From Pseudonocardiaceae bacterium (GTDB taxonomy: Bacteria; Actinomycetota; Actinomycetes; Mycobacteriales; Pseudonocardiaceae), in assembly GCA_036279295.1 (NCBI GenBank), contig DASUJK010000129.1:40165-64164 (forward strand): 24,000 nt of DNA. The letters are read 5' to 3'. Positions 8,566 to 23,276 of this stretch are shown here, piece after piece. The notes under the pieces are model-generated. The model did not search any database and was not told the origin of the DNA. It saw nothing but the letters and a program-made list of their open reading frames with translations. The first letter of the stretch is position 1. The number at the start of each line of letters is the position of its first letter. Position numbers and translations under genes: made by a program.

Positions 8566-10938
8566 GTGATCCGATCACTGGGCGCCGCCGTCGGGAGACG
8601 GGTGGCGCCAGGGGTGTCGGGAGCGTGGGTGAGCCAGGACGTCGAATCTGCGGCCGCTGCCGGAGCTGAGCAGTTGGCCGCCGCGCGGCCGCCGTCGGCC
8701 ACCCGCAGGGTGCGCGCCCGGTTGGCGAGGCGCATCACGGCCCAGCGGCCGTCCTCGGTCAAGCAGGTGCTCGAACCGCTCGCCGCCGTCCACCGTGACC
8801 TGCACCCCAACGCCGATCTCGGCCTGTTGCAGCGTGCCTACGACGTGGCCGAGGAGAAGCACCGCGAGCAGCGGCGCAAGTCGGGCGATCCGTACATCAC
8901 ACACCCGCTCGCCGTCGCGACCATCCTGGCCGAACTGGGCATGGACACCACGACCCTGGTCGCCGCCCTGCTGCATGACACCGTCGAGGACACCGACTAC
9001 TCACTGGAGCGCCTGCGGGCCGACTTCGGCGAGGTCGTCGAGCACCTGGTGGACGGCGTCACCAAGCTGGACAAGGTCAAACTCGGCTCGGCGGCCGAGG
9101 CCGAGACCATCCGCAAGATGGTCATCGCGATGGCCCGTGACCCGCGCGTACTGGTCATCAAGCTGGCCGACCGGCTGCACAACATGCGCACGATGCGGTT
9201 CCTGCCGCCGGAGAAGCAGGCCCGCAAGGCCCGCGAGACACTGGAAGTACTGGCCCCGCTGGCACACCGGCTCGGCATGGCGACGGTGAAGTGGGAACTG
9301 GAGGATCTCGCGTTCGCGATCCTGCAACCCAAGAAGTACGACGAGATCGTCCGGCTGGTGGCCAACCGGGCGCCGTCGCGGGACACCTACCTGCGCACGG
9401 TCAAGGAGGAACTGGCCGGACACCTCGCCGAGGCCAGGCTGGAGGCCGAGGTCCAGGGCAGGCCCAAGCACTACTACTCGATCCACCAGAAGATGATCGT
9501 CCGCGGCCGGGACTTCGACGACATCCACGACCTCGTCGGCGTGCGGATCATGGTGGACGACGTCCGCGACTGCTACGCCGCAATGGGCGTCGTGCACGCG
9601 ATCTGGCAGCCGATGCCCGGCCGGTTCAAGGACTACATCGCGCAGCCCCGGTTCGGCGTCTACAAGTCCTTGCACACCACCGTGATCGGGCCGGACGGCA
9701 AGCCGCTCGAAGTGCAGATCCGGACCAGGGACATGCACCACACGGCCGAGTACGGCATCGCGGCGCACTGGCGGTACAAGGAAACCAAGGGTTCGCACAA
9801 CGGCAAGTCCGTCGAGATCGACGAGATGGCCTGGATGCGGCAACTCCTGGACTGGCAGCGGGAAGCGGCCGACCCGGGCGAGTTCCTCGAATCGCTGCGC
9901 TACGACCTGGCCACCCGCGAGATCTTCGTGTTCACGCCCAAGGGCGACGTGGAGACGCTGCCGGCCGGCTCGACACCGGTGGACTTCGCGTACTCGGTGC
10001 ACACCGAGATCGGCCACAAGTGCATCGGCGCCCGGGTCAACGGCAGGCTCGTCGCGCTGGAACGCAAGCTGGAGAACGGTGAAGTAGTCGAGATCTTCAC
10101 CTCGAAGGCCGACGGCGCCGGGCCGAGCCGCGACTGGCTGTCGTTCGTCGCGTCACCGCGTGCCAAGACGAAGATCAAGCAGTGGTTCGCGAAGGAGCGC
10201 CGCGAGGAGGCCATCGAGGCCGGCAAGGACACCATCAGCAAGGAGGTCCGCAGGGTCGGACTGCCCCTGCAACGGCTGGTGTCCGCCGATTCGATGTCCG
10301 CGCTGTCCCGGGAACTGCGCTACCCGGACGTGACAGCGCTGTACGCGGCCATCGGCGAAGGCCAACTGTCCGGCCGGCACGTCGTGCAGCGTCTCGTCGC
10401 CCTGCTCGGTGGCGTCGAGCACGCCGAGGACGAGCTGGCCGAGCGCTCCACACCGTCCACAGTGACCAGACGCCGCGGTTCCGGCGACGCCGGCGTGGTG
10501 GTGGTCGGCGCGTCGGACGTGTGGGTCAAACTGGCGCGCTGCTGCACCCCGGTACCCGGCGACGAGATCCTCGGCTTCGTCACCCGTGGCGGCGGGGTCA
10601 GCGTGCACCGCAAGGACTGCACCAACGCCGGCGACCTGTACGACTCGCCGGAACGGCTGGTCGAGGTGTCCTGGGCCCCGTCGGCGTCGTCGGTGTTCCT
10701 GGTCGCCATCCAGGTCGAGGCGCTGGACCGGCACCGCCTGCTGTCCGACGTGACCAAGGTGCTTGCCGATGAGAAGGTCAACATCCTGTCCGCGTCGGTG
10801 GCCACGTCCCGGGACCGGGTCGCGGTCAGCCGCTTCTCCTTCGAAATGGGCGACCCGACGCACCTGGGCCACGTGCTCAAGGCCGTGCGCAGCGTGGAAG
10901 GCGTCTACGACGTGTACCGGATGACGTCAGCCAACTAG
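8566..10938 (+). CDS. relA: Bifunctional (p)ppGpp synthetase/hydrolase RelA/SpoT (Rel)
   Basis: Near-colinear with mycobacterial Rel as I recall it. HD domain ([13 protein letters not shown]...LLHDTVEDT), synthetase domain ([12 protein letters not shown]...DLVGVRIM), TGS ([10 protein letters not shown]), CCTPVPGD zinc-finger region and C-terminal ACT. The exact start is uncertain (GTG 8566 or a later GTG). Confidence 0.95.
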
Positions 10939-11274
10939 CTTCAGGATTTCGTCCAGCGCGGCCTGACCATCGGGTGCTCGTTTCGGCAGCCGGTCAACGA
11001 GATCGGCCAGGTGGACCCCGTCGACCTCGCTGACGATCGAGGCGATCTCCGCGAACGTAGTCCGTGGCCTGGCGCCGAGCTGTACGTAGGAGCTGATGTC
11101 GCCGCCCATCTGGTACGTGACAACAGCGGCGGCGAGAAAATGTGCCCATATCTGCCCTATGTCGCCAGCCGCTCCCCGCAAATGGTTGGCCAGGTTGTGA
11201 TGGCTGAGGGCTACCTGCTGCGGATCGAACGCCACGTACGCCAGCCGCAGCGCGTCTGCCTCCAGGAAAAAGCT
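10927..11274 (-). pseudogene. Out-of-frame C-terminal continuation of the CHAT-STAND-TPR protein (open frame downstream of the A5/T5 frameshift site)
   Basis: The minus-strand frame opens after a TAG at 11275-11277. It reads SFFLEADALRLAYVAFDPQQVALSHHNLANHLRG..., a TPR-like, protein-like sequence. The annotated frame of the large ORF instead ends in Arg/Trp-rich SWRQTRCGWRTWRSIRSR*. Confidence 0.6.
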
Positions 11275-14200
11275 CTATCCTGATGCGACAGCGTGCGCTC
11301 AATGTTGGCCTGTGCGGACAAGGTCTTGCTGAGTAGGTCGATTTTGTTGTTCTGTTCGAAAACGGATCGACACCATCGCAGCAGCTCAATGGCCTCGTCC
11401 ATTCGATCCAGGCGGCACAGTGCTTCGCAGTCGTTGAAGAGAGTTGTCGCCTGTTCGACCGCGGAAGCGCCGCGGGCGCGTTGGGACGCGTTGTGTTCCG
11501 CGTTGATCTCCAGGGCCAGCTCCCATAGGCCCAGTTCTCCAGCGGAAATGGAACCGAGATTGAGGATGGGCTCGCGACTAATCCACGCGGAACCAGTTTC
11601 GTCTACGCCTTGGATATCCAGCAGTGTCGCCATCGCGATGCGGTGCTGTTCGACCGAATCCAGCACTTCTTGATGACGGCCTTGGTGCCAGAGGATCTGA
11701 AGACGTTGAGCATCGTCCCCGATCCGGGTCCACGGCCCGAGGCCAGCCCGGGCGCTGTATTCAATCTTGTCGTCCGCGAGTTGGAGGGCTTCGTCGAGGC
11801 GGCCGGCCCGACGAAGCAGGTTGATCAGGCTGGGTGCGATGATCGAAGCGGCGCGAAAATCACCCTGCGCCACAGCGAGATCCAGTAACTCACGGAATCG
11901 AGTTGTCGCATGGTCCGGGTGCAGTACAGCTAGCGCCTGAGCATGGACGCGTCCGGCCATCAGTGCGTGCTCGGTGCTGATGGTGGCATCCATGGCACTT
12001 GCAAGTAGTGGCAGAAGTGCCGATGCGGTGATTGCCGAGGCGTCATATTGGACTAGCGCGTCGGCAGCGACACTGAATTCCAACCAGCGGTGTTGGTGGA
12101 ACAGATACGGAGCCGATGATCGGGCCGAATGAAGGATCATAGGTCCAAGTTGGTCGGTCTGTTCCCGTTGCAGCGCGGCGTGAAGTACCGCCAGCCATAG
12201 GTCGCCGAGCACGGTGTCCACCGCATTGGCGAACTCGGAACGCGCGCGGTCGCGTACTGTTTCGGCGATGCCTGGATGGACGCGATAGGTACTGGCCGCT
12301 ACCAAGGCCGCGTCGAGCAATGGTGGCATCGACTTGGCCGGATCTGGTGGATCGCCCGGACGTCCTAACCGCTCCCACACCGCAGTCCAGGCGCCCTCGG
12401 CGATCCTGGCGTTGCGGTCGCTCTCCTCCAGGCAGCACAGGAACTGGAAGAACACGGCGGCGTCCGATGGCAAGCCGGCCACCGTGGCTAGGGTCCAGGT
12501 CCGCAGGACAGCCAGGTAGTTCGCATCGGTCGCCTCGGACTCGCCGTCCAGGAACGGTGCCAGCCGGGTGCCTCCGCGCTGCCACGTCTCGTCCGCCTCG
12601 GCCAACCGGGTCGCGAGCCGCTCGGGATCAGCGGCATGGCCGTCGGCCAGCTCGATCAGCTTGGGGTGGCCTTGGACCACGGTGATCGTGCGCCTGGCCA
12701 GTTCAGGGTCGCTGTCGATGAGCGCCCTGAGGTGCGGCAACTCCCGAGCGAGCAACACAGCTTCCCGCAGCGACAGAGCGTGCACCGGCTCGACCAGCAC
12801 CGAATCGGGCAGTCCAACCGGCCGACGACGCGAGGTCAGCACCAGCCGGGACAGGCCATGATGCGCCGTCATCGCGTCGATCAGCAGCGCCCACCGCTCG
12901 TCCCGCCACTCGCCGCCGTCCGTGAGCAGCGACTCGACGTTGTCCAGGACGACCAGTACTCGCTCCTGCTCCAACACCTCGGTGAACGACGGCAGCCACG
13001 CCCGCCACGCGTCGATGTCGCCGACGAGGTGCGCGAGCTTGAGCCCCGGCAGTTGCCGCTCCAACGCGAACGCGAAGTCCGACAGGGCCGTCGTGATGTC
13101 GTGGCCTTCAGGCGGTGCCGCATGCCAGGCCATCGCCGGGAACGACTCCTGGTGCGTGTACGCCAGTTCCAGCGCACACGCGGTCTTGCCGGCTCCCGCC
13201 ATGCCGTGCAACAGGATGCCGCTGCGGCCGCTGTGCGGGGCCAACGCTGTGGTCGCCCGCGTCATCGGCTCGACCCGGCCGACGAATCGCTCCGGCTGCG
13301 CGGGAAAGTCGGCCAGCTTCTGCCGTTCCGCGTCGAACACCAGCGGCGCACCCGGCGGTGGCACCAGTTTCAGGTCGCCCGCACGCGGCCCGAACAACGT
13401 TGGCGTCGCCACGGACATCGCAGGTGCGGCAGCCGTCGGCGGCTGCACGGCGGCCTGGGGCAACGACAACGCCAAGGCACGCGCGACCGACTGCCCTTTG
13501 CCCAGTACCAAGCCGTAGAACGATTCCGCCAACGCGATTGCGAAGTCGTCGACCACCGGATAGCGCATCGCCAGGACCGCGCAGTCCAATGTGCCGGCCA
13601 CCTCGGTCGCGATGGCAGGCAGTGCTCCGCTGTCAGCGTCGGTGTCGACATCGCGCACGGCCGGTGCCAGCCCGAGCAGGTGCAGCTGCTCACCGGCCGC
13701 CACCGCCGCCGACTCGCACGCGGACAACGTGACCAGCTTGATCTGGTCGGCAGCCAGGTCGAGCAGATCAACGAGATCGGTGCTGCTGATCAGGTCCAGC
13801 CGGCCAGTGTCGTCCTCCAGCACCAGCCCTGCCGGCAGGCCGTGGCCGGACAGGTGCACCACGTCCCAGCCGGCGTCCTCCAACAACGCTTCACGCAGCC
13901 GTTCCCTGGTCGCGCCGTACTGGAGCACGCGCAGCTCGATGGGCTTGTTGTTGACAGCGGCGATCTCGTGGACGAGCCGGGCCAGCGCGAACCGCTCCTT
14001 GCGCAGGTTCAGCGCTCCCGCGTCCTCGGGCAGGCTGAACACGGCCAGCATCCGCAGCCGTTCGCCGACATCGGACTTGGCGAGCGGGCGGTGTGGCTGC
14101 TGGTCGATGATGAAGCCGACGCGGTGCCCGGCCAGCGTGCGCCCGTCCACCCGGGCCAACTCCCACGGCAGACAAGCCAGCACACCGGCTTCGGCGGGCA

Positions 14201-14510
14201 CCTCGATCCGCACCGGCCGCCGATGGCGCGCCAACACCGCCGCCAGGCCGCCGAAGACGCGCTCGGTGATCCACTCGCCGAGCTGGTCGACCAGCTCGGC
14301 CTCGTGGCGCAGCCGCCGGTCGGGTGCCGCGTTGTGCCGCAGATAACCGTGCAGGTCATGGAACGCGGTGTACTGCCATTCCTGGCCGCGCAGGTCGACG
14401 ACGTGGTCACCCAGGAACGTGCCGGCGTCGGTCAGCCGCCATCGCCACTTCGTCGGACCGGCGTGGTCGAGCACCTCAAGGCGCAGTTCCACGTCACTGT
14501 GTCGCGACAT
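11211..14510 (-). CDS. NLR-like STAND protein: N-terminal CHAT (caspase-like) protease + NB-ARC/AAA P-loop NTPase + C-terminal helical/TPR sensor (apparently frameshifted near 3' end)
   Basis: CHAT dyad context VVHLSGHG (13839-13856) and LVTLSACESA (Cys codon 13716-13718). Walker A GMAGAGKT (13182-13205). Walker B VLVVLDNVE (12933-12959). Long alpha-helical repeat C-terminus. Confidence 0.8.
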   Translation of the reverse strand: MSRHSDVELRLEVLDHAGPTKWRWRLTDAGTFLGDHVVDLRGQEWQYTAFHDLHGYLRHNAAPDRRLRHEAELVDQLGEWITERVFGGLAAVLARHRRPVRIEVPAEAGVLACLPWELARVDGRTLAGHRVGFIIDQQPHRPLAKSDVGERLRMLAVFSLPEDAGALNLRKERFALARLVHEIAAVNNKPIELRVLQYGATRERLREALLEDAGWDVVHLSGHGLPAGLVLEDDTGRLDLISSTDLVDLLDLAADQIKLVTLSACESAAVAAGEQLHLLGLAPAVRDVDTDADSGALPAIATEVAGTLDCAVLAMRYPVVDDFAIALAESFYGLVLGKGQSVARALALSLPQAAVQPPTAAAPAMSVATPTLFGPRAGDLKLVPPPGAPLVFDAERQKLADFPAQPERFVGRVEPMTRATTALAPHSGRSGILLHGMAGAGKTACALELAYTHQESFPAMAWHAAPPEGHDITTALSDFAFALERQLPGLKLAHLVGDIDAWRAWLPSFTEVLEQERVLVVLDNVESLLTDGGEWRDERWALLIDAMTAHHGLSRLVLTSRRRPVGLPDSVLVEPVHALSLREAVLLARELPHLRALIDSDPELARRTITVVQGHPKLIELADGHAADPERLATRLAEADETWQRGGTRLAPFLDGESEATDANYLAVLRTWTLATVAGLPSDAAVFFQFLCCLEESDRNARIAEGAWTAVWERLGRPGDPPDPAKSMPPLLDAALVAASTYRVHPGIAETVRDRARSEFANAVDTVLGDLWLAVLHAALQREQTDQLGPMILHSARSSAPYLFHQHRWLEFSVAADALVQYDASAITASALLPLLASAMDATISTEHALMAGRVHAQALAVLHPDHATTRFRELLDLAVAQGDFRAASIIAPSLINLLRRAGRLDEALQLADDKIEYSARAGLGPWTRIGDDAQRLQILWHQGRHQEVLDSVEQHRIAMATLLDIQGVDETGSAWISREPILNLGSISAGELGLWELALEINAEHNASQRARGASAVEQATTLFNDCEALCRLDRMDEAIELLRWCRSVFEQNNKIDLLSKTLSAQANIERTLSHQDRAFSWRQTRCGWRTWRSIRSR

Positions 14511-14511
14511 G

Positions 14512-15804
14512 TCAGCACCGTATTACCGGACCGGTCACCCCGCGATAGGTCACCCCACCGTCCGACGAGAGCTGGACGATCGGGATCGCCCTGTCGAGCG
14601 GGTTGCCCGCCTTGTCGAAGCACAGGTAGCCGCTCGCGCCGTGCACCGGCCGCTCGGGACTGATCGCGGTCAGCACCTCGTCGTGCGACACGATGGCCTG
14701 ATCGTCGTCGAGTGCGGTGGCGGGCTCGGCCGGGAACATGTGGCTGAACCCGTGTGGTGCCTTGGTGAACCACGCCGTGGTGGCCGGGTCGGCCAGTGCC
14801 GGACCGCGCCACATGCCGGGGCTGGCCAGCGCCGTGAAGTACACGGTCATGTTCGCCGACGCCGACCACAGGTCGGGTTGGCCGGCGATCTGTGCCGCGT
14901 CACTGCTGGTCAACACCGTCAACGGCTGGGTCCTGGCACACGATCGGTGGCCCAGTTCCGTGAGAGTGCGGCGCAGATCCGGGCCGGTGCCGGCGAAGTA
15001 GAGGACGTTCACGTGCGCCCGGCACACGCCGTCGCCACCGCCCGCGGCACTGGCCGTCAACACCGTTGCCGCCGCCGGCACGCCGGAGTCGTACTCCGAG
15101 CCCGGGCCGACGATCTGGTAGCGGTTCCGCACTGCGGGCGCATACGCGTCGCCCAACGCGATCGCGTGCGCGTCCGCCGGATTCTCGTCCTGCATCAGCC
15201 ACATCCGTGGCCGAGCGGGCAACCGATCGGGACGGGTGTCCAGGAAGCGGATCGCGGCCGACACCTCGTCCGGATACGTCGGAGTCACTCGGACCAGCCC
15301 ATGGATCCCGGCCAGGTCACCGGTGCCGACCATCGCGATGTGCCGGCCTGCCAAGGCATGGGCCAGGTCGGCATCCCCACTGCCCAGGCCGATCACCGCC
15401 ATCGGGTGCTGTCCGTGGAGCGCGGTCACTGCCGGCTGCCACGCCCGGTCGTCGGCCAGCACGAGGCGGACCAGCGGTGAGCCGGTGGTGCTGTCGGTCG
15501 GATGATTGGCCTCGTACTGCGCCAGATATGCGCCCTCAACGGCATGCCTGGTGTCCGCCGAGCCATTCGGCACCACCAGCACCACGATGGTCACAAAGTG
15601 CTTTCCGGTGCCGGCCACCCATTTGTTCTGTTGGTGGATCAGATTCTCCACCTGCCGTAGGTTCGCGTTGAACACATGTCCGCCGTCGGTCACGTACACC
15701 GGGGCAGGCGGAATCGGTCGTAGTGCGTAGGCAACGCCCCCAGCGGCTGCCAACACGATGACAAAAAGTGGAACGATCAGTCTTCGGCGTCGCCACCAGG
15801 GCAT
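14512..15804 (-). CDS. Membrane-anchored/secreted type-I periplasmic-binding-protein-like (LivK/Peripla_BP_6-like) protein, no cognate ABC permease nearby
   Basis: ATG at 15804 preceded by GGGGGAGG with a 7-nt spacing. N-terminus MPWWRRRRLIVPLFVIVLAAAGGVAYAL (signal/anchor). Body pattern AVEGAYLAQYEAN...LVRLVLADD...AVIGLGSGD...VRVTPTYPDE typical of type-I PBPs. The TGA stop is 1 nt from the ATG of the CHAT-STAND gene. Confidence 0.65.
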   Translation of the reverse strand: MPWWRRRRLIVPLFVIVLAAAGGVAYALRPIPPAPVYVTDGGHVFNANLRQVENLIHQQNKWVAGTGKHFVTIVVLVVPNGSADTRHAVEGAYLAQYEANHPTDSTTGSPLVRLVLADDRAWQPAVTALHGQHPMAVIGLGSGDADLAHALAGRHIAMVGTGDLAGIHGLVRVTPTYPDEVSAAIRFLDTRPDRLPARPRMWLMQDENPADAHAIALGDAYAPAVRNRYQIVGPGSEYDSGVPAAATVLTASAAGGGDGVCRAHVNVLYFAGTGPDLRRTLTELGHRSCARTQPLTVLTSSDAAQIAGQPDLWSASANMTVYFTALASPGMWRGPALADPATTAWFTKAPHGFSHMFPAEPATALDDDQAIVSHDEVLTAISPERPVHGASGYLCFDKAGNPLDRAIPIVQLSSDGGVTYRGVTGPVIRC

Positions 15805-15840
15805 ACGTCGGCCTCCCCCTCGCGCACCGCAACCAGTCCC

Positions 15841-15867
15841 ACGCATTTCGACCCCCGCGAAATGCGT
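15841..15867. promoter_or_regulatory. Perfect 10-bp inverted repeat ACGCATTTCG-N7-CGAAATGCGT upstream of the PBP-like/CHAT-STAND operon
   Basis: Read directly from the sequence. Lies 37-63 nt upstream of the 15804 start and 116 nt downstream of the cyclophilin stop. It could be an operator or the terminator of the upstream gene. Confidence 0.35.
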
Positions 15868-15982
15868 TCATGGACATTTCCTGGACACCGCGACCGGGCA
15901 TTTACCCGGGCGCGGCCGGACTGATTGTGGTGTGCCGAGGCGGCCGAATGCAGCCGCTGTTCGGGTAACGGAGCGGGTGAAC

Positions 15983-16777
15983 TCAGCCCGCGGCGACGGT
16001 GGCCGACGTGATGGTCACCTTGGTCGCCGGTGGGCCGTCCGTCGGGTCGCTGCCCTGTGCCACGCCCGCCTTCGAGATCTTGTCCAGCACCGTGAGACCG
16101 GCCGGCGACACCTGACCGAACACCGCGTAGTTGGGCGGCAGATCGGAGTCCGCGTACACGAGGAAGAACTGGCTGCCGCCGCTGTGCGGCTGACCGGTGT
16201 TGGCCATCGCCAGGGTGCCCCGCGCGTACAGCGAGGCGCCCGGGGCACCCGGCGCCGGCGGCAGGTCCGTCGGGTTCTCGTCCGGGATGGTGTAGCCGGG
16301 ACCGCCCATGCCGGTGCCCGTCGGGTCACCGCACTGCAGGACGCTCAGTGACGGCGACGTGGTCAGCCGGTGGCACGGCGTCTGGTTGAAGTACCCCTTG
16401 GTCGCCAGGAACGCGAAGCTGGCCACCGTGCACGGAGCCTTGGACCTCGGCATCGTCATCGGGATGTCGCCCTGCGACGTGTGCAGCGTGACGCTCACCG
16501 TGCCGGCCCGGGGTGCCGAATTGGGCGGCAGGCCCTCGTTGTGCCCGGACGGTGCCGGCTGGTCCGGCGTCGCCGTGAAGTCGCACGTGCTGGTCCCGGT
16601 GGCGGGCGGCGCGCTGGCCGCTGCCGTCGTCGTGGCCGGTGCGACCGCTGGTGCGCTGGACGCACCACCGGCCGCGGTCGGGGTACCGGAGCCGGACTGT
16701 GCGCAACCGGCCACCAGCCCGAGCAGGGCGGTGACCGCGGCGCAGGTGATCATGGCGCGCCGATGACTGGCGGTCAT
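15983..16777 (-). CDS. Cyclophilin-type peptidyl-prolyl cis-trans isomerase, lipoprotein form
   Basis: Lipobox LLGLVAGC. Cyclophilin core CHRLTTSPSLSVLQCGDPTGTGMGGPGY...GTLAMANTGQPHSGGSQFFLVY...YAVFGQV. Confidence 0.9.
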   Translation of the reverse strand: MTASHRRAMITCAAVTALLGLVAGCAQSGSGTPTAAGGASSAPAVAPATTTAAASAPPATGTSTCDFTATPDQPAPSGHNEGLPPNSAPRAGTVSVTLHTSQGDIPMTMPRSKAPCTVASFAFLATKGYFNQTPCHRLTTSPSLSVLQCGDPTGTGMGGPGYTIPDENPTDLPPAPGAPGASLYARGTLAMANTGQPHSGGSQFFLVYADSDLPPNYAVFGQVSPAGLTVLDKISKAGVAQGSDPTDGPPATKVTITSATVAAG

Positions 16778-16815
16778 GCCGCCCCTTTCGTGCTGGTGGA
16801 CCGGTTGGTATGGGT

Positions 16816-17751
16816 TCAGCTGGCGGTGACGACGGCCTGGGTGATCGTGACCGGCTTCTTCGGCTTGCCGTCGTTGGGCGTGGTCTGGCCGCTGCTCGGG
16901 TCGGTGCCCGGCGTGATGCCCGCTTGCGCGATCTTGTGCAGCACGTCCAGGCCCGCGGCCGAGACGGAGCCGAACACGGTGTAGTCCGGCGGCAGGTGCG
17001 AGTCCTGGTAGACGATGAAGAACTGGCTGCCACCCGAGTGCGGCTGGCCGCTGTTGGCCATGGCCAGCGTGCCGGCCGGATAGACGACCGGAGCCTTCTG
17101 GCCGGCCGGCACCGGCGTGGTGCTCGGCACCGCCTTGAGCGTCTTCGGCTTCTCGTCCGGGATGGAATAGCCGGGACCACCGCTGCCGGTGCCCGTCGGG
17201 TCACCGCACTGCAGCACGAACAGCGGGTTGGGGATCGGGTAGTCGGTGATGCGGTGGCACGGGGTGTTGTCGAAGAACTTGGCGGTGACCAGGTGCAGCA
17301 TGCTCTGCACGGTGCACGGCGCCTCGGCCTTGTCGAACGTCAACGGGATGTCGCCGGCCGTGGTCTTCAACGTCACCTGGGTGGTGCCGGTCTTCGGTGT
17401 CGACGCGGGGTCGTCGGGCACGCCGACGTCCTTGCCGGCCGGTGCCGGGGCGGTCGGGGTGGTCGTGTACTTGCACGCGCCCTTGGTGGTCACAGCGGGC
17501 GGGCTGGACGTGGTCGGGCTCGCGCTGCCCGACGGCGACGCGGCGGCTGTGCCACCGTGACCCGCCGTCGCGACGAGATAAACACCACCCACGACGACGA
17601 CCACAGCGACAACGGTCACGATGACCGCGGTCAGCCTGCGCCGTTTTGCCCGCTCGACGCGCCGCGCCAGCTGACGTTCCAGCTTCCGCTTAGCTGCCTG
17701 GCGGCGCTGTTCGTTGCTCGGCACCTGCCCCTCCCCGGGGTTGACTCTCAT
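16816..17751 (-). CDS. ppiB: Cyclophilin-type peptidyl-prolyl isomerase with basic N-terminus and TM anchor (PpiB orthologue)
   Basis: N-terminus NEQRRQAAKRKLERQLARRVERAKRRR + TM closely parallels mycobacterial PpiB (Rv2582) as I recall it. Cyclophilin core CHRITDYP...LQCGDPTGTGSGGPGY...GTLAMANSGQPHSGGSQFFIVY. Confidence 0.9.
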   Translation of the reverse strand: MRVNPGEGQVPSNEQRRQAAKRKLERQLARRVERAKRRRLTAVIVTVVAVVVVVGGVYLVATAGHGGTAAASPSGSASPTTSSPPAVTTKGACKYTTTPTAPAPAGKDVGVPDDPASTPKTGTTQVTLKTTAGDIPLTFDKAEAPCTVQSMLHLVTAKFFDNTPCHRITDYPIPNPLFVLQCGDPTGTGSGGPGYSIPDEKPKTLKAVPSTTPVPAGQKAPVVYPAGTLAMANSGQPHSGGSQFFIVYQDSHLPPDYTVFGSVSAAGLDVLHKIAQAGITPGTDPSSGQTTPNDGKPKKPVTITQAVVTAS

Positions 17752-17900
17752 CCGACCGTGTGACAGCGCAGTCTAGGGCGAGGTGATGTGAGGACCGTGT
17801 GGTGGGCCGGTCCCGGTAGGCTGTCAACCGCCTGGCAACGGCCTTGACCGTTGGCCACACTGTGTGGACTGGCAAGTTTCTGCTAACCGGAGGTCGTGTC

Positions 17901-18614
17901 GTGCTGGTCGTCGGGTTCCCTACCGGGGCGCTACAGGCGAACTGCTACCTGTTGGCCGCCGATGCCGGGGAGCCCTGTGTCATCGTCGATCCCGGCCAGG
18001 ACGCGGTCGAGCCGATCATGGACTCGATCCGCCAGCACCGGCTGTCGCCGGTCGCGGTCCTGCTCACCCACGGGCACTTCGACCACACGTTCGCCGTGAC
18101 CCCGGTGTGCGACGGCCAGGACATTCCGGCTTGGATCCACCCGGACGACAGGGACATGCTGTCCGACCCGATGCGCGGCCTGAGCAGCGACGCCACCGAG
18201 TTCTTCGGCGGCCGGATCGAGATGCGGGAGCCCGCGCAGGTGCGCGAACTCGCCGACGGCGTGGTGTTGGACCTGGCCGGTCTGAAACTGGTCGTCGACC
18301 ACACTCCGGGCCATACGGGCGGGTCGGTGACGTTCCGGACCGGCCCCGAGGGACCCGACGGGCCCAGCACGCTGCTGCTGGCCGGGGACACCCTGTTCGC
18401 TGGTTCGATCGGACGTTCCGACCTGCCCGGCGGCGATCCGCGTCGGCTGCTGGAGTCCTTGCGGGACAAGGTACTCACGCTGGCCGACGAGACGGTCGTA
18501 CTGCCGGGCCACGGCCCGACGACCACCATTGGCCGGGAGCGCGCGAGCAATCCGTTCCTCGTGGGTATCAACGGCGACGACGCCACCCCGGCCGCACCGC
18601 ACCGAGGACTGTGA
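17901..18614 (+). CDS. MBL-fold metallo-hydrolase (glyoxalase II-like)
   Basis: GTG at 17901 with GGAGG 7 nt upstream. [19 protein letters not shown]-terminus and HxHxDH motif (LLTHGHFDH). The track's TTG 17844 start adds an unsupported leader. Confidence 0.85.
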
Positions 18615-18624
18615 CACCAACATC

Positions 18625-19896
18625 ATGTCGACCTTTTCCGCCCCCAAGGGCATTCCTGAATACTTCCCGCCGTCCAGCGCCGCATTCAGCACCGTACGGG
18701 ACACGTTGTTGCGGTCGGCCGCGTTGGCCGGTTACGGCTACATCGAGCTGCCGGTGTTCGAGGAGACAGCGCTGTACGCACGCGGCGTCGGCGAGTCGAC
18801 CGACGTGGTCAGCAAGGAGATGTACACCTTCCAGGACAAGGGTGGCCGGTCGGTCACCCTGCGCCCGGAGGGCACCGCAGGCGTGGTCCGGTCGGTCATC
18901 GAGCACGGCCTGGACCGAGGCCAGCTGCCGCTGAAACTGTGCTACGCCGGGCCGTTCTTCCGCTACGAGCGCCCGCAGGCCGGCCGCTACCGCCAGTTGC
19001 AGCAGGTCGGCGTCGAGGCGATCGGCAGTGACGACCCGGCGCTGGACGCCGAGGTGGTTGCGATCGGCGACGCCGGCTACCGGGCCATCGGGCTGACCGG
19101 TTTCCGGCTGGAGATCACGTCGCTCGGCGACACGAACTGCCGGCCCGCCTACCGGGAACTGCTACAGGAGTTCCTCGGCAGGCTGCCGCTGGACGAGGAC
19201 ACGCGGCGCCGGGCCGAGGTGAACCCGTTGCGGGTACTGGACGACAAACGTCCGGAGATGCAGGCGCTGCTGGCCGACGCGCCGCTGATGGTGGACCACC
19301 TGTGCGACGCGTGCCGGGAGCACTTCGACCGGGTCAAGGGCTACCTCGTGGACCTCGGCGTGAAGTTCACCGAGAACCCCAGGATGGTGCGTGGCCTGGA
19401 CTACTACACCCGCACCACGTTCGAGTTCGTGCACGACGGTCTCGGTGCCCAGTCCGGCATCGGCGGCGGTGGCCGCTACGACGGGCTGATGGCCGAGCTG
19501 GGCGGCCAGCCGCTGTCCGGCATCGGGTACGGGCTGGGCGTGGACCGCACGGTGCTGGCCGCCGAGGCCGAAGGGCTGACCGTCGGCGACCAGGCCCGGT
19601 GCGACGTGTTCTGCGTGCCGCTGGGTGACGCGGCCAAGGATCGGCTGGTGGCCGTGGCCGGTGCGTTGCGGGCTGCGGGTGTCCGGGTGGACCTGGCGTA
19701 CGGCGGCAAGGGCCTGAAGGGCGCGATGAAGGCGGCCGACCGGTCCGGCGCCCGCTATGCGGTGGTGGTCGGCGAACGCGATCTGGCGGAGGGCGCGGCG
19801 CAGCTGAAGGAGCTGTCGTCCGGTGACCAGCGGCCGGTGCCGCTGGTGGACCTGGTCGGCGCGGTGCACGAGGCGCTCGCCCTGCCGACCCCGTGA
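18625..19896 (+). CDS. hisS: Histidine--tRNA ligase
   Basis: ATG at 18625. [10 protein letters not shown], class II motifs ([48 protein letters not shown]). 423 aa. The upstream part of the track ORF overlaps the MBL gene. Confidence 0.95.
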
Positions 19897-20540
19897 CCGA
19901 ACCCGGCGGTGCCGATCAGCGCACCCCACTGGACCTGCTGCCCGGCGCCGTGTTGCGGCGCCGGGCCACGGTCGTCTCCGCGGTGGCCGTGGTGATGGGT
20001 GGCGTGTTCGGTGTGGTGTTCGGCCTGGTCGCCGACTGGCTGGTCGGGCTGCTCGCCGCGATCATCGTGTGCGTGCCGCTGGTCATGGTGGCCGTTGCCG
20101 AGGCGCGTCGGCACTGCTGGCTGGTGGGTGGCACGGTGTTCGTGCGGGCGATCGGTACCCGGTCGGTGGACCTGCGGCAGACCACCGGCATGGAACTGCT
20201 GATCACCCGTGTGCGCGGCTCCACCGTGGTCGGTGTGCTGGCCACCGGGCCGCCGAAGGGCAAGACGATCAACGTCGCCGTCGCCACGTATACCGGTGGT
20301 GGCGGTCGGGAGCTGGACATTCTGGCGCTGCGCAGACTGGCGGACGCGCTGGCCGCGGGCTCGGACACCAACGGACTGGTGTTCGCCGAACTGCTGGTTG
20401 CGCAACTGCGCGCCGAGGCGAGAGGTGAGGCGCCCGGGGGCCGGCCGCTCTATCGGGTGGCCGCGATGGCTCCCGGCGGGCGGCTCACGTACCGCATCCC
20501 GTCCGACGCGGTGGGCACGTTCGTGTCGTCGCTGGACTGA
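19893..20540 (+). CDS. Hypothetical membrane protein (two TM helices + beta-rich C-terminal domain)
   Basis: The GTG overlaps the hisS stop (GTGA). Two hydrophobic helices ([40 protein letters not shown]). Codon usage is consistent with coding. No family recognised with confidence. Confidence 0.5.
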
Positions 20541-20541
20541 G

Positions 20542-21156
20542 CTACTCGGCCGTGGACCGGCCCAGGTAGGTGAGCAGGTCGTCGCCCATGTCGATCTCGT
20601 GGCAGCCGAGCCGGTCGTAGAACGCCCTGGCCTGCGTGTTCGTCGTGAGCATGGCGAGGTGCACCGCGGGCACGCCGGCCGTGTGCAGGGCGGTGAGCAG
20701 GGTGGCCATCATGCGCCTGCCGTGGCCCGAGCGCTGGTAACCGGGCAGCAGGTCGATGTGCAGATGGGCCGGGTAGTCGGCCAGTTTCGCGTGCACCATC
20801 AGTTCCGGGTGGTGCAGGAGGTAGGCCATCTCCTCGTCCCGGTCGGCAGGCGGCCCGGCGGGTTCGGGATGCTTGGCGCCGACCAGCGGTAGCCACTTCT
20901 CCCGCATCGCCTCGGCGAACCGTGTGCTGTCCGGGGCGCCGAGCACGTAGCCGGTGACCTGGCCGCCGTCGTCCAGCACGAACGCGAAGTCCGGCTCCAG
21001 GTAGGCGTAGGGCCCGGCGAAGATGTCGCCGACCAGTTCCGGGTCGCGGTAGAGCGCCGTGGCGTCCTGGCCGCCGTCGGCGGTGCGCAGGCAGACGTCG
21101 TAGATGCCGTCCCGGTCGGCTGGTCGGAACGGACGAATCACCACATCGGCCATCAC
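20542..21156 (-). CDS. GNAT-family N-acetyltransferase
   Basis: IRPFRPADRDGIYDV N-terminus and acetyl-CoA motif LLPGYQRSGHGRRMMATLL...ARAFYDRLG. The start is either GTG at 21156 or ATG at 21153. Confidence 0.8.
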   Translation of the reverse strand: MMADVVIRPFRPADRDGIYDVCLRTADGGQDATALYRDPELVGDIFAGPYAYLEPDFAFVLDDGGQVTGYVLGAPDSTRFAEAMREKWLPLVGAKHPEPAGPPADRDEEMAYLLHHPELMVHAKLADYPAHLHIDLLPGYQRSGHGRRMMATLLTALHTAGVPAVHLAMLTTNTQARAFYDRLGCHEIDMGDDLLTYLGRSTAE

Positions 21157-21194: not shown

Positions 21195-21210
21195 TCGAAC
21201 ATGTGTTCGA
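21195..21210. promoter_or_regulatory. LexA SOS box, perfect match to the actinobacterial consensus TCGAAC-N4-GTTCGA
   Basis: The sequence is TCGAAC ATGT GTTCGA. It sits in the 62-bp divergent spacer between the GNAT gene and the radical SAM gene, 9 nt upstream of the latter's GTG. It is the only such site I found in the window. Confidence 0.7.
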
Positions 21211-21218
21211 ATCGGTAG

Positions 21219-23276
21219 GTGCGATGGGACGGACAGCGGGTTCAGGGGGACGGGCAGGCGCAGGGCGCCTTGCCCGGGATCAGTGGGCTGGTGCGCAGCG
21301 TGCGTACGCCCGAGTTCAACGGCCTCGTGTTCCACGAGGTGATGGCCCGATCGGTGCTGAACAAGGTGCCGGGCGCGTCGTCCATGCCGTTCGGCTGGAC
21401 GGTGAACCCGTACCGCGGCTGTTCACACGGTTGTACGTATTGCCTGGCCGGGGACACCCCGGTGCTGATGGCCGACGGCCGCACCAAGCCGATCGCCGAT
21501 CTCGTCGTCGGCGACCGGATCTACGGCACGCGGCTGACCGGCCGATATCGCCGCTACGAGGCGACGACGGTGCTGGCGCACTGGGCCACGGACAAGCCCG
21601 CCTATCGGATCAAACTGGTCGACGGCACCGAGTTGGTGACCAGTGCCGACCACCGGTTCCTGACCGAGCGGGGCTGGAAACACGTCACCGGCACCACGAC
21701 CGGTGCGGCCCGGCGCCCCCACCTGACCACCGGCAACAAGCTGATGGGCACCGGTTCGTTCGGTGCGCAACCGGTGGTGGACGCGGACTATCGGCGCGGC
21801 TACCTGTGTGGGCTGGTGCCGGGTGGCGGTGGTGCCGGCTACCGCGACCGGGTGGCCAGGTTCCGGCTGGCCGCCGCACCGGACGGCGTGGCCGATCGGG
21901 CGGCACGGTTCCTCGCCGAATTCGGTGTGGACGCCGAACACGCCGGTGTGGTGCCCGGGTTGCTGGCGTGGCCGAGCGAGCCGAACGACCACTGGCACAA
22001 GGGTTTCCTGGCCGGAGTGTTCGACGCGCGGGGCGGCCGGTCCAGTCGGGTGCTGCGGATTCGCAATGCTGATCCCGAGGTGGTGCGGGCAGTGCTCGTC
22101 GGGTTCACCAGGTTCGGTTTCGCGCACACCGTGGAGGAGGCGGCCAAGGGCGTCGGGCCGCAGGTGGTCCGGCTCAACGGTGGACTGACCGAACACCTGC
22201 GGTTCTTCCATACGGTGGACCCGGCCGACACGAGCAAACGCACCATCGACGGGCTGGCCATCAAGTCGGGCGCGGCGCTGGGTGTGGTGTCGATCGAGGC
22301 ACTGAACAAGACGATGCCGATGTACGACATCACCACCGGCACAGGTGACTTCGTCGCCAATGGTGTGGTGTCGCACAACTGTTTCGCCAGAAATTCGCAT
22401 ACGTACCTGGATCTGGACTCGGGGCACGACTTCGACACCCAGGTCGTGGTGAAGGTCAACGCGGTCGAGGTGCTGACGGCCCAGTTACGGGCCAAGAAGT
22501 GGCAGCGAGAGCACGTCGCGATGGGTACGAACACCGATCCGTACCAACGGGCCGAGGGCCGGTACGAGTTGATGCCGGGCATCATCGGCGCGCTGGCCCG
22601 GTCCGGCACGCCGATGTCGATCCTGACCAAGGGCACGGTGCTGTCCAGGGACATCCAGTTGCTGGCCGCCGCGGCCAAGGACGTGCCGGTCGGGCTGGGC
22701 GTGTCGATCGCGTTGGTCGACCGGGACATCCAGCGTGATCTCGAACCAGGCACGCCCAGCCCGCAGGCCAGGTTGGAACTGGTCCGGCGGGTGCGCGAGG
22801 CAGGGCTGCCGTGTGGCGTGTTCGTGGCACCGGTGTTGCCGATGCTGACCGACTCGGCGGACCGGTTGGACCGGCTGTTCGCCGCGATCGCCGATGCTGG
22901 CGCGACGGGCGTGACGGTGTTGCCGCTGCACCTGAGGCCGGGCGCGCGGGAGTGGTTCGCCGCGTGGTTACGCAGGGAGCATCCGGAATTGGTGGAGTCG
23001 TACCGGCAGATCTACGGGAAGGGGAGTTACGCGGATCGTGGTTACCGGAAGCTGTTGGCAGCCCGGGTCGGTCCACTGTTACGCAGGCACGGCCTGAGCA
23101 CGGGCACCGACCGGTCCACGACGGACACGGCCACCGATGGCGCCGATGGCACTGGGCCGGTGGGCGGCGGCGCGGGGGAGTCGGACCCGGACCGCGCGGT
23201 GTGGCCTGCGGGCAGCCTGCCAGCCGGAGCACCACGGTCAGCCACGGTGGACCAGGGCCAACTCAGCCTTCTGTGA
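21219..23276 (+). CDS. SplB-like (COG1533, Rv2578c-family) radical SAM protein, intein-containing precursor
   Basis: Exteins read RSVRTPEFNGLVFHEV...PYRGCSHGCTY|CFARNSHTYLDLD...GTNTDPYQRAEGRYELMPGII...SILTKG, typical of the Rv2578c-type radical SAM family. 685-aa precursor, about 372 aa after splicing. Confidence 0.9.
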   Translation: MRWDGQRVQGDGQAQGALPGISGLVRSVRTPEFNGLVFHEVMARSVLNKVPGASSMPFGWTVNPYRGCSHGCTYCLAGDTPVLMADGRTKPIADLVVGDRIYGTRLTGRYRRYEATTVLAHWATDKPAYRIKLVDGTELVTSADHRFLTERGWKHVTGTTTGAARRPHLTTGNKLMGTGSFGAQPVVDADYRRGYLCGLVPGGGGAGYRDRVARFRLAAAPDGVADRAARFLAEFGVDAEHAGVVPGLLAWPSEPNDHWHKGFLAGVFDARGGRSSRVLRIRNADPEVVRAVLVGFTRFGFAHTVEEAAKGVGPQVVRLNGGLTEHLRFFHTVDPADTSKRTIDGLAIKSGAALGVVSIEALNKTMPMYDITTGTGDFVANGVVSHNCFARNSHTYLDLDSGHDFDTQVVVKVNAVEVLTAQLRAKKWQREHVAMGTNTDPYQRAEGRYELMPGIIGALARSGTPMSILTKGTVLSRDIQLLAAAAKDVPVGLGVSIALVDRDIQRDLEPGTPSPQARLELVRRVREAGLPCGVFVAPVLPMLTDSADRLDRLFAAIADAGATGVTVLPLHLRPGAREWFAAWLRREHPELVESYRQIYGKGSYADRGYRKLLAARVGPLLRRHGLSTGTDRSTTDTATDGADGTGPVGGGAGESDPDRAVWPAGSLPAGAPRSATVDQGQLSLL
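21441..22379 (+). mobile_element. Class-1 intein (313 aa) with degenerate LAGLIDADG homing-endonuclease insert
   Basis: Block A CLAGDTPVLMADG. Block B ELVTSADHRFLT. Blocks F/G MYDITTGTGDFVANGVVSHN followed by +1 Cys. LAGLIDADG-like motifs GYLCGLVPGGGG (21798-21833) and KGFLAGVFDARGG (21999-22037). Confidence 0.88.

What the first reader, a model, noticed from the sequence alone, without database searches (positions are those of the whole stretch)
21441..22379. Intein inserted exactly inside the radical SAM CxxxCxxC [4Fe-4S] motif
The N-extein ends GCSHGCTY. The intein starts with Cys1 (CLAGDT...) and ends ...VVSHN, and the C-extein starts CFARNSH. Splicing therefore yields CSHGCTYCFAR, the canonical Cx3Cx2C, with the +1 nucleophile Cys being the third cluster ligand. 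The unspliced precursor also displays an intact Cx3Cx2C, using the intein's own Cys1. Cluster loading or thiol oxidation could thus compete with, or gate, splicing. That would be a built-in redox/Fe-S conditional switch, analogous in spirit to conditional inteins reported for mycobacterial SufB and DnaB. I cannot tell without a database search whether this insertion site is already catalogued.
Basis: partly seen in the sequence, partly recalled or inferred. Interest (0 to 1): 0.75.

Follow-up and report, generated by a model that had tools for sequence, protein, structure and literature searches.

The report
Known intein inside radical-SAM cysteine motif
A self-splicing protein insert (intein) does sit just before the third iron-binding cysteine of a DNA-damage-induced radical SAM enzyme, but this arrangement is a widespread, already catalogued family, and its proposed role as a redox or iron-sulfur switch is untested.

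Summary
ORF 21219..23276 (+) encodes a 685-aa Rv2578c-family (COG1533, SplB-like) radical SAM precursor. A 313-aa intein (21441..22379) is inserted between Tyr74 and the third Cys of Cx3Cx2C. Splicing would restore GCSHGCTYCFAR.

All class-1 splicing residues are present. They are invariant in the window and 80 related genomic loci.

It is not new. The protein scores 871.7 bits (cutoff 700) on NCBIfam NF038136, "intein-containing Rv2578c family radical SAM protein". At least 593 loci in species-representative genomes carry it, and a 2015 intein survey lists 48 "SplB/COG1533" inteins.

The window copy has lost both LAGLIDADG catalytic acids. Intein presence follows host clades, so it is largely vertically inherited here.

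- A perfect LexA/SOS box lies 8 nt upstream of the start codon and is conserved across the intein-bearing loci.
- Homologous inteins occupy the same third-Cys site in PA0069, DUF5131 and B12-binding radical SAM proteins. In one protein the site is the second Cys.

The redox/Fe-S switch idea is chemically plausible. The closest published precedent I found is the Pyrococcus abyssi MoaA intein, which has a Cys-3/Cys1 disulfide. Nothing here tests the idea, and close relatives lack the intein.

The parts
21195..21210 (.). LexA/SOS box TCGAACATGTGTTCGA, ending 8 nt before the start codon
   Evidence: It is the only 0-mismatch match to TCGAACNNNNGTTCGA in the window. At the equivalent upstream position in the 80 related loci, 41 have a perfect box and 33 have one mismatch. 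No shuffled upstream segment (0 of 2000) reached one mismatch or fewer. The M. tuberculosis Rv2578c/Rv2579 intergenic region has a ChIP-seq LexA peak (PMC3381160).
21219..23276 (+). Precursor ORF (GTG start, 685 aa plus stop): intein-containing Rv2578c-family radical SAM protein
   Evidence: NF038136 scores 871.7 bits against a cutoff of 700. The closest genomic locus found (L001) is from a Pseudonocardiaceae MAG, with 92% identity in the best aligned segment.
21219..21440 (+). N-extein (74 aa), ending GC68SHGC72TY. It carries the first two cluster cysteines (codons 21420-21422 and 21432-21434).
   Evidence: Direct reading. C68 and C72 are invariant in 81 of 81 aligned precursors.
21441..22379 (+). 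Class-1 intein, 313 aa. Cys1 is at 21441-21443. Block B is SADH, with His71 at 21651-21653. Blocks F and G (MYDITTGTGDFVANGVVSHN) span 22320-22379.
   Evidence: Cys1, block-B His, block-F Asp, the penultimate His, the terminal Asn and Cys+1 are invariant in 81 of 81 precursors. The Hint fold is supported.
21759..22268 (+). Degenerate LAGLIDADG homing-endonuclease domain nested in the intein. Motif 1 is GYLCGLVPGGG (21798-21830) and motif 2 is GFLAGVFDARG (22002-22034).
   Evidence: The family consensus is GYLCGMIRGDG and GFLAGIFDAEG. The catalytic Asp is present in 84 of 90 homologues and the catalytic Glu in 83 of 90. In the window they are Gly and Arg. Mean identity of this domain to the window across the 80 loci is 44%, against 66% for the Hint parts, and it carries deletions. 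The Pfam LAGLIDADG_3 match is only weak. Residues 203-214 of the model have pLDDT below 50.
22380..23273 (+). C-extein (298 aa), starting with Cys+1 (22380-22382), the third cluster ligand. The radical SAM core follows, then a roughly 60-aa low-confidence tail.
   Evidence: Pfam Radical_SAM matches residues 419-546. NF038135 aligns through residue 626. pLDDT is below 35 for residues 630-685.

Best explanation
This is an ordinary class-1 intein with a dead LAGLIDADG homing endonuclease. It is resident at a well-populated insertion site immediately before the third cysteine of the Cx3Cx2C [4Fe-4S] motif. The host gene is an SOS (LexA)-regulated Rv2578c/COG1533 'SplB-like' radical SAM gene of a Pseudonocardiaceae bacterium.

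Inferred mechanism, from intact catalytic residues and standard intein chemistry:
1. Cys75 (intein Cys1) performs an N-S acyl shift on the Tyr74-Cys75 bond.
2. Cys388 (+1) takes over the N-extein by trans-thioesterification.
3. Asn387 cyclises to release the intein.
4. An S-N shift yields a 372-aa enzyme with the restored CSHGCTYCFAR cluster loop.

The third ligand lies 313 residues away from the other two until splicing occurs. The authentic three-Cys cluster/AdoMet site should therefore exist only after splicing.

The site is best explained by intein biology. Homing endonucleases target highly conserved DNA, and the site supplies an obligatory Cys at +1. In this lineage the element no longer homes and persists by vertical descent, because imprecise loss would destroy the cluster motif. 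Any redox or metal sensitivity arising from the C-7/C-3/C1/C+1 thiols is a plausible side property, not a demonstrated function.
For: - Coordinates and junctions were read directly.
- The family models score above their curated cutoffs, and the fold matches.
- Splicing residues are invariant in 81 of 81 precursors. Mean identity to the window is 66% for the Hint domain, close to the exteins (69-72%), and 44% for the endonuclease domain.
- Both endonuclease catalytic acids are replaced in the window.
- GC3 of the intein (0.86) equals that of the exteins (0.85-0.86), so it is compositionally ameliorated.
- At least 593 loci in species-representative genomes carry it.
- 78 of the 120 nearest extein relatives carry the intein at this site and 42 lack it.
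- Intein presence needs only 6 parsimony changes on a 121-taxon extein tree, against a mean of 34.8 for shuffled labels.
- No copies were found in phage, plasmid or viral-contig collections.
- The SOS box and its conservation are shown. Literature supports SOS control of this gene family.
Against: - Splicing has not been observed for any member that I could find.
- Pfam's Intein_splicing model scores below its gathering threshold (29-32 against 35.8).
- Block B has Ser or Gly where most inteins have Thr (SxxH).
- Long persistence of an intact Hint domain after endonuclease decay is also what a beneficial regulatory intein would look like. The data therefore do not discriminate neutral retention from selected retention.
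Confidence: 0.78

Rival explanations
1. This is the first reader's hypothesis: an adaptive conditional-splicing switch. In the precursor, Cys72 (-3) and Cys75 (intein Cys1) form a CxxC. Under oxidising conditions this closes into a disulfide. Alternatively, together with Cys68 and Cys388, it binds an Fe-S cluster or Zn2+. Either event blocks the first splicing step, so the oxygen-labile, SOS-induced radical SAM enzyme matures only when the cell is reducing or iron-replete.
For: - Cys-7, Cys-3, Cys1 and Cys+1 are invariant in 81 of 81 precursors.
- There is a direct precedent. The P. abyssi MoaA intein has a native Cys-3/Cys1 disulfide that controls splicing, and an engineered Cys-3 trap works in Ssp DnaE (PMC3922620 and PMC10663303; PDB 3nzm appears among the fold matches).
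- Redox- and zinc-responsive mycobacterial DnaB inteins are documented (papers listed).
- The intein persists after the endonuclease has decayed.
- The host gene is stress-regulated.
Against: - No experiment exists.
- Cys+1, Cys-3 and Cys-7 are fixed by the host enzyme's own needs. Cys1 is the commonest intein nucleophile. Their conservation is therefore expected without any gating.
- Close relatives, including species of the same genera (Prauserella, Amycolatopsis), function without the intein.
- A homologous intein at the same site in a DUF5131 protein has Ser1 (P0271).
- An intein cannot be lost except by precise deletion, so persistence is not evidence of benefit.
- Some in-vitro redox sensitivity is likely. 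An adaptive role is much less so.
Confidence: 0.17
2. The insert is a non-splicing relic, that is, a dead intein or a lineage-specific domain. The gene would then be inactivated, or the protein would work with the insert in place, using intein Cys1 as the third cluster ligand.
For: - The endonuclease part is clearly decaying.
- Relic loci exist in which the exteins are partly deleted but the intein ORF remains (P0040/L081 and P0045/L082).
- The precursor does present a Cx3Cx2C.
Against: - Every splicing residue is intact and invariant across 81 loci.
- Hint-domain conservation equals extein conservation.
- The exteins remain full length and score as an equivalog of the intein-less family.
- The SOS box is retained.
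- A 313-aa domain between the cluster ligands would displace the loop that must also bind AdoMet. This last point is inference from radical SAM structures.
Confidence: 0.04

Closest known systems
NCBIfam NF038136, 'intein-containing Rv2578c family radical SAM protein' (the 'SplB, COG1533' inteins of Novikova et al. 2016, PMC4760082)
   Same: Same host family, same insertion point (intein begins at model position 76 and at residue 75 here) and same intein lineage. The score is above the curated cutoff. Dozens of named members occur in Saccharothrix, Actinosynnema, Actinophytocola, Lentzea, Kutzneria and Amycolatopsis.
   Different: Nothing essential. The window copy is one of the shortened inteins (313 aa against about 345) and has lost both endonuclease catalytic acids.
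Pyrococcus abyssi MoaA intein (Callahan et al. 2011, as summarised in PMC3922620 and PMC10663303)
   Same: The host is a radical SAM enzyme. A native extein Cys at -3 and intein Cys1 give a CxxC that forms a disulfide and blocks splicing until reduced. A Cys-3/Cys1 spacing is what insertion before the third Cys of Cx3Cx2C would produce.
   Different: The host family (MoaA), the domain (Archaea) and the lifestyle (hyperthermophile) all differ. I could not read the primary paper or the sequence. That the MoaA insertion lies in the cluster motif is therefore my inference, not a checked fact. Whether the two inteins are homologous is unknown.
Conditional mycobacterial inteins (SufB; DnaB i1 with oxidative stress, zinc and reactive chlorine)
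   Same: These are actinobacterial inteins whose catalytic cysteines make splicing sensitive to oxidants or metals (papers listed).
   Different: In those cases the sensing cysteines are intein-internal or sit at other positions. The host motif is not itself a metal-cluster site, and conditionality has been shown experimentally. Here nothing has been tested.
Inteins clustered at conserved cofactor-binding motifs, such as P-loops of ATPases (Novikova et al. 2016)
   Same: The insertion is at the most conserved ligand-binding residues. Related inteins occupy the equivalent site in different families: PA0069, DUF5131 and B12-binding radical SAM.
   Different: The motif is a Cys triad for an Fe-S cluster rather than a nucleotide-binding loop. 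That paper's main text does not discuss this site.

Membership tests
Class-1 intein (Hint splicing domain) | Nucleophile (Cys/Ser) at intein position 1 | tested here: met
   Cys75 (TGC, 21441-21443). It is Cys in 90 of 90 homologous inteins and in 81 of 81 loci.
Class-1 intein (Hint splicing domain) | Block B TxxH with conserved His | tested here: met
   The window has S-A-D-H71. His is present in 90 of 90 homologues. The Thr position is Ser in 75 and Gly in 15 of 90, a conservative variant.
Class-1 intein (Hint splicing domain) | Block F Asp, penultimate His and C-terminal Asn, followed by a Cys/Ser/Thr at +1 | tested here: met
   The sequence is MYD296ITTGTGDFVANGVVSH312N313 | C. All of these residues are invariant.
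Class-1 intein (Hint splicing domain) | Curated profile matches | tested here: met
   TIGR01445 scores 32.4 (cutoff 24.5) and TIGR01443 scores 18.6 (cutoff 15.6). Pfam PF14890 scores 29-32, below its 35.8 cutoff.
Class-1 intein (Hint splicing domain) | Hint fold with N and C termini brought together | tested here: met
   The AF2 model has pLDDT 85-94 in the Hint strands. Foldseek gives probability 1.00 to TliVMA, PI-SceI, PI-PfuI and the DnaB and RecA inteins.
Class-1 intein (Hint splicing domain) | Autocatalytic excision with extein ligation | not testable with these tools
   This needs expression and SDS-PAGE or mass spectrometry. No published test of this allele was found.
Active LAGLIDADG homing endonuclease | Two LAGLIDADG motifs, each ending in a catalytic Asp/Glu | tested here: not met
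   The window has GYLCGLVPGGG and GFLAGVFDARG. The consensus acids (D in 84 of 90, E in 83 of 90) are Gly and Arg here. PF14528 reaches only 19.6-22.5 bits against a 22.5 cutoff.
NF038136 intein-containing Rv2578c family radical SAM protein | Whole-protein score above the curated cutoff, with the intein at model position 76 | tested here: met
   The score is 871.7 bits against 700. Residues 1-626 align to model positions 1-573 of 574. The intein alone aligns to model positions 76-334.
Radical SAM superfamily (Rv2578c / COG1533 SplB-like) | Cx3Cx2C cluster motif near the N terminus, plus the radical SAM core | tested here: met
   The motif is restored only after in-silico splicing, as CSHGCTYC. 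PF04055 scores 50.6 (cutoff 29.5). NF038135 scores 522.7 (cutoff 430). Fold matches include LipA and spore photoproduct lyase.
Radical SAM superfamily (Rv2578c / COG1533 SplB-like) | [4Fe-4S]-dependent reductive cleavage of AdoMet; substrate identity | not testable with these tools
   The function of Rv2578c and PA0069 proteins is not established. 'DNA repair photolyase' is an annotation label.
Redox-trap conditional intein (Pab MoaA type) | Extein Cys at -3 paired with intein Cys1 | tested here: met
   The sequence is C72-T-Y-C75, invariant in 81 of 81 loci.
Redox-trap conditional intein (Pab MoaA type) | Disulfide or metal occupancy that reversibly blocks splicing | not testable with these tools
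   This requires biochemistry. It is known only for MoaA and engineered DnaE.
Actinobacterial LexA (SOS) regulon | TCGAAC-N4-GTTCGA operator in the promoter region, conserved among orthologues | tested here: met
   A perfect box lies at 21195-21210. 74 of 80 loci have one mismatch or fewer, against 0 of 2000 shuffles. The M. tuberculosis orthologue has a ChIP-seq LexA peak. LexA binding in this organism was not tested.

The most novel reading that the evidence does not exclude
This intein lineage specialises on the cluster-ligand cysteine codons of radical SAM proteins. It occupies the third Cys in the Rv2578c, PA0069, DUF5131 and B12-binding families, and the second Cys in one B12-binding protein. 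It could be retained after endonuclease decay because the precursor's four clustered thiols (C-7, C-3, C1, C+1) form a disulfide or bind Fe-S or Zn. That would make maturation of an SOS-induced, oxygen-labile DNA-repair-type enzyme depend on redox or iron status. The result would be a post-translational checkpoint layered on LexA control.
Probability: 0.15. Interest if true: 0.7.

Novelty: already known. Interest (0 to 1): 0.3.

Why it matters
As it stands, this is a correctly spotted but catalogued feature. Annotation pipelines already name it, and a 2015 survey counted it among the commonest bacterial intein hosts.

Three things could still be worth a specialist's time.
1. In the papers I could search, nobody discusses that this abundant intein splits the Fe-S ligand triad. 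The MoaA-style redox-trap experiment on a bacterial, SOS-regulated host is open and easy.
2. The same intein lineage recurs at cluster cysteines of several radical SAM families, which defines a superfamily-wide insertion hotspot.
3. The system would let one ask whether Fe-S assembly and protein splicing compete on the same cysteines.

Tried and rejected
- Literature. I searched for this allele with 'intein' plus 'radical SAM', 'Rv2578c', 'MoaA intein', 'intein' plus 'DUF5131', and 'intein' plus SplB/COG1533. Only Novikova et al. list it, as 'SplB', without discussing the site. The primary MoaA redox-trap paper and two related papers are not held, so the MoaA insertion site could not be verified.
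- Mobile vectors. tblastn of the intein against phage and plasmid collections, and a viral-contig scan, found nothing.
- PDB sequence search. It found only weak DnaB-intein matches (E about 1e-3), so no close solved structure exists.
- Promoter and terminator consensus scan around the gene. It found nothing, which is uninformative in a 69% GC actinobacterium.
- 'Lineage-specific non-intein domain'. Rejected, because blocks A, B, F and G are intact and invariant.
- 'Recent horizontal arrival'. Rejected, because GC3 matches the host, the endonuclease is dead and presence is clade-structured.
- Frameshift at the C-junction as the explanation for truncated relatives. tblastn shows the C-extein is simply absent from those loci.
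- My strict regular-expression count of intact endonuclease motifs across the loci (17 of 80) undercounts motif variants. I do not rely on it.
Full report
**1. What is in the sequence**

The window (69% GC) has one long ORF at 21219..23276 on the + strand: GTG start, 685 aa. Residues 1-74 end ...NPYRGCSHGCTY. Residues 75-387 (nt 21441..22379, exactly 313 codons) read CLAGDTPVLMADG ... MYDITTGTGDFVANGVVSHN. Residue 388 onward reads CFARNSHTYLDLD....

Removing the 313 residues gives CSHGCTYCFAR, a Cx3Cx2C. The precursor itself reads C68-x3-C72-x2-C75, where C75 is the first residue of the insert.

**2. It is an intein in a radical SAM protein**

Curated models:
- NCBIfam NF038136, 'intein-containing Rv2578c family radical SAM protein', scores 871.7 bits (cutoff 700).
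- The intein-less equivalog NF038135 scores 522.7 bits (cutoff 430), with the exteins covering profile positions 1-316 of 317.
- The intein N- and C-terminal models TIGR01445 and TIGR01443 both pass their cutoffs.
- Pfam finds Radical_SAM (50.6 bits), and weaker matches to Intein_splicing (below cutoff), LAGLIDADG_3 and Hom_end_hint.

An alignment of 90 complete homologous inteins shows:
- Cys1 in 90 of 90.
- Block A as C-x-x-G-[DE]-T-P-[IV]-L-M-A-D-G.
- Block B as S/G-x-D-H-R-F-L-T, with His invariant.
- Block F as Y-D-I-T-T-G-T-G-D-F-I-A-N-G, with Asp invariant.
- Block G as V-V-S-H-N, invariant.

In the window and 80 genomic loci, eight residues are identical in 81 of 81: Cys-7, Cys-3, Cys1, the block-B His, the block-F Asp, His-Asn and Cys+1.

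An AlphaFold2 model of the precursor has mean pLDDT 72. The Hint strands score 85-94, and the junction loops (residues 68-71 and 389-405) score below 50. By Foldseek the model matches endonuclease-containing inteins (TliVMA 7qsu, PI-SceI 1vde, PI-PfuI 1dq3), mini-inteins (DnaB, RecA, DnaE) and radical SAM enzymes (LipA 5exj, spore photoproduct lyase 4rh0). No close solved relative exists by sequence.

**3. State of this copy**

The nested LAGLIDADG endonuclease is degenerate. The family consensus is GYLCGMIRGDG and GFLAGIFDAEG. The window has GYLCGLVPGGG and GFLAGVFDARG, so both catalytic acids are lost. The intein is also about 30 residues shorter than the roughly 345-aa norm.

Across the 80 loci, mean identity to the window is 66% in the Hint parts, 69-72% in the exteins and only 44% in the endonuclease part, which also carries deletions.

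Third-position GC of the intein (0.86) equals that of the exteins. The element is therefore old, ameliorated and no longer mobile here, while the splicing machinery is kept under constraint. That is expected, because the host enzyme needs splicing.

**4. How common and how known**

Searching with the intein alone returned 2026 proteins. Among the 120 best, wherever a junction is visible and the reading frame is intact, it reads YRGC.H.C.YC | x.G[DE]T... and ...NGVVSHN | C[FY]AR.

The best is 92% identical (best aligned segment) and comes from a Pseudonocardiaceae MAG. Full-length copies occur in Lentzea, Actinokineospora, Amycolatopsis, Kutzneria, Pseudonocardia, Micromonospora, Geodermatophilus, Blastococcus, Isoptericola, Cryobacterium and others.

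Searching with the spliced extein showed 78 of the 120 nearest relatives with the intein at this site and 42 without it (plain CxxxCxYCFAR). Many NCBI and UniRef records are already named 'intein-containing Rv2578c family radical SAM protein'.

On a neighbour-joining tree of the exteins, intein presence needs only 6 parsimony changes, against a mean of 34.8 for shuffled labels. This indicates mostly vertical inheritance, with intein-free sister clades.

Novikova et al. (Mol Biol Evol 2016, PMC4760082) list 'SplB, COG1533' with 48 inteins in Actinobacteria in their table of bacterial intein-containing proteins. Their main text does not mention the Fe-S motif. The feature is therefore catalogued. 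What I did not find in print is a discussion of its position inside the cluster triad.

**5. Context**

The window carries rel (8566-10938), a cyclophilin (15983-16777, minus strand), hisS (18529-19896) and a GNAT acetyltransferase (20542-21156, minus strand) before the radical SAM gene. From my recollection of the M. tuberculosis gene order, not checked here, this resembles the neighbourhood of Rv2578c.

A perfect actinobacterial LexA operator, TCGAACATGTGTTCGA, lies at 21195-21210 and ends 8 nt before the GTG start. It is the only perfect match in the window. At the same relative position in the 80 loci, 41 have a perfect box and 33 have one mismatch. No shuffled control (0 of 2000) reached that level.

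The M. tuberculosis Rv2578c/Rv2579 region has a LexA ChIP-seq peak with RecA-dependent induction (PMC3381160). SplB-like radical SAM genes are reported SOS members in other phyla (PMC3323433 and PMC3765255). The host gene is thus a DNA-damage-inducible radical SAM enzyme of unproven substrate.

**6. The site is a hotspot across the superfamily**

The exhaustive representative search gave 1903 representatives at E<=1e-3 and 218 at E<=1e-30. It shows specifically related inteins, 37-47% identical including the endonuclease domain, in other hosts:
- PA0069-family proteins of Proteobacteria, Acidobacteriota and a Halobacteriales MAG.
- DUF5131 proteins, some with a ParB domain and related to 'radical SAM mobile pair protein A'. 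The junction reads WNPVTGC.H.CPYC | ... HN | CYARD (P0264, P0276, P0301).
- B12-binding radical SAM proteins. The junction reads SRGCP..C.FC | ... HN | CF.. (P0266, P0356).
- Several unclassified Cx3Cx2C contexts.

Two variants are informative. P0289 (B12-binding radical SAM) has the intein before the second Cys: RGCPYR | C...SHN | CNFC. P0271 (DUF5131) has Ser1 instead of Cys1, so its precursor lacks the surrogate triad. Each rests on a single metagenomic representative.

**7. Mechanism and the switch hypothesis**

The standard class-1 pathway is inferred from intact residues. Activity of the host must depend on splicing, because the third ligand is supplied by Cys+1.

It has a close precedent in the P. 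abyssi MoaA intein, where a native Cys-3/Cys1 disulfide blocks splicing until reduction, and in the engineered DnaE redox trap (PMC3922620 and PMC10663303). MoaA is a radical SAM enzyme, and a Cys-3/Cys1 spacing is what the third-Cys site would give. I could not read the primary paper, so that equivalence is my inference.

The hypothesis cannot be tested here. The conservation of these cysteines carries no weight for it, because the host motif and ordinary intein chemistry already demand them. Intein-free orthologues in sister clades and congeners show that the intein is dispensable.

I put the selfish-relic reading at about 0.78. I put an adaptive redox or Fe-S switch at about 0.15-0.17. I consider some in-vitro redox sensitivity more likely than not.

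**8. Verdict**

Novelty: already known. Interest is modest at 0.3, mainly for the easy experiment and for the cross-family hotspot.

Noticed in passing
window 21195-21210; L001-L080, immediately upstream of the start codons: A perfect LexA/SOS operator lies 8 nt upstream of the radical SAM start codon. It is conserved (one mismatch or fewer) in 74 of 80 intein-bearing loci. The intein therefore sits in a DNA-damage-induced gene.
   Followed up: yes
P0264, P0271, P0276, P0301 (DUF5131); P0266, P0356, P0289 (B12-binding radical SAM); P0059, P0088, P0115 (PA0069 family): Inteins 37-47% identical to the window's occupy the same third-Cys position of Cx3Cx2C in other protein families. P0289 has the intein before the second Cys instead. 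P0271 has Ser1 rather than Cys1. Each of these two variants is seen in a single metagenomic representative.
   Followed up: partly
L081 4001-5221 (Amycolatopsis anabasis, P0040); L082 4001-5083 (Actinokineospora sp., P0045); also P0002, P0006, P0015, P0049, P0074, P0110: These are relic loci. The SOS box, the N-extein (partly) and an open intein ORF remain, but similarity stops about 5 residues into the C-extein. The rest of the radical SAM gene is absent from the locus. L082 shares neighbouring gene families with the window (cyclophilin upstream). Why the intein ORF outlives its host gene is unexplained.
   Followed up: partly
window 21798-21830 and 22002-22034; L001-L043: The endonuclease is decaying across Pseudonocardiaceae. 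Inteins there are shortened to 283-313 aa with lost catalytic acids. Copies of about 340-350 aa with GDG...DAEG intact occur in Micromonospora, Geodermatophilaceae and Isoptericola.
   Followed up: yes
P0007, P0008, P0010, P0040 and others: Many intein-bearing fragments are named 'LAGLIDADG family homing endonuclease' or 'hypothetical protein' by their sources. This includes copies whose exteins match the PA0069 family better, such as P0059 and P0088. Among the matches listed, the only intein-containing radical SAM model is the Rv2578c one.
   Followed up: partly
intein positions 2-3 (window 21444-21449): The residues right after Cys1 are unusually variable in this lineage. Position 2 is L in 33, A in 13 and M in 11 of 90, plus S, Q, C, G, E and T. 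The following G-[DE]-T-P-[IV]-L is nearly fixed. The significance for the first splicing step is unknown.
   Followed up: no
window 11211-14510 (-) and 14512-15846 (-): A 1099-aa protein has a CHAT protease domain plus AAA/NB-ARC-like NTPase signatures and a weak PADLOC SAVED_CHAT match (E about 1e-6). Next to it is a 444-aa ORF with no family match. This may be a STAND or defence-type module.
   Followed up: partly
window 8566-21156: The gene order is rel, cyclophilin, hisS, a GNAT acetyltransferase and then the radical SAM gene. As I recall the M. tuberculosis map, this resembles the Rv2583c-Rv2578c region, with the GNAT gene where dhaA lies. The Mtb order was not checked here.
   Followed up: partly
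window 23100-23273 (protein residues ~627-685): The host protein ends in a tail of about 60 residues rich in Gly, Thr, Asp, Ala and Pro. The tail is not covered by the family model and has pLDDT below 35, so it is probably disordered or lineage-specific.
   Followed up: no
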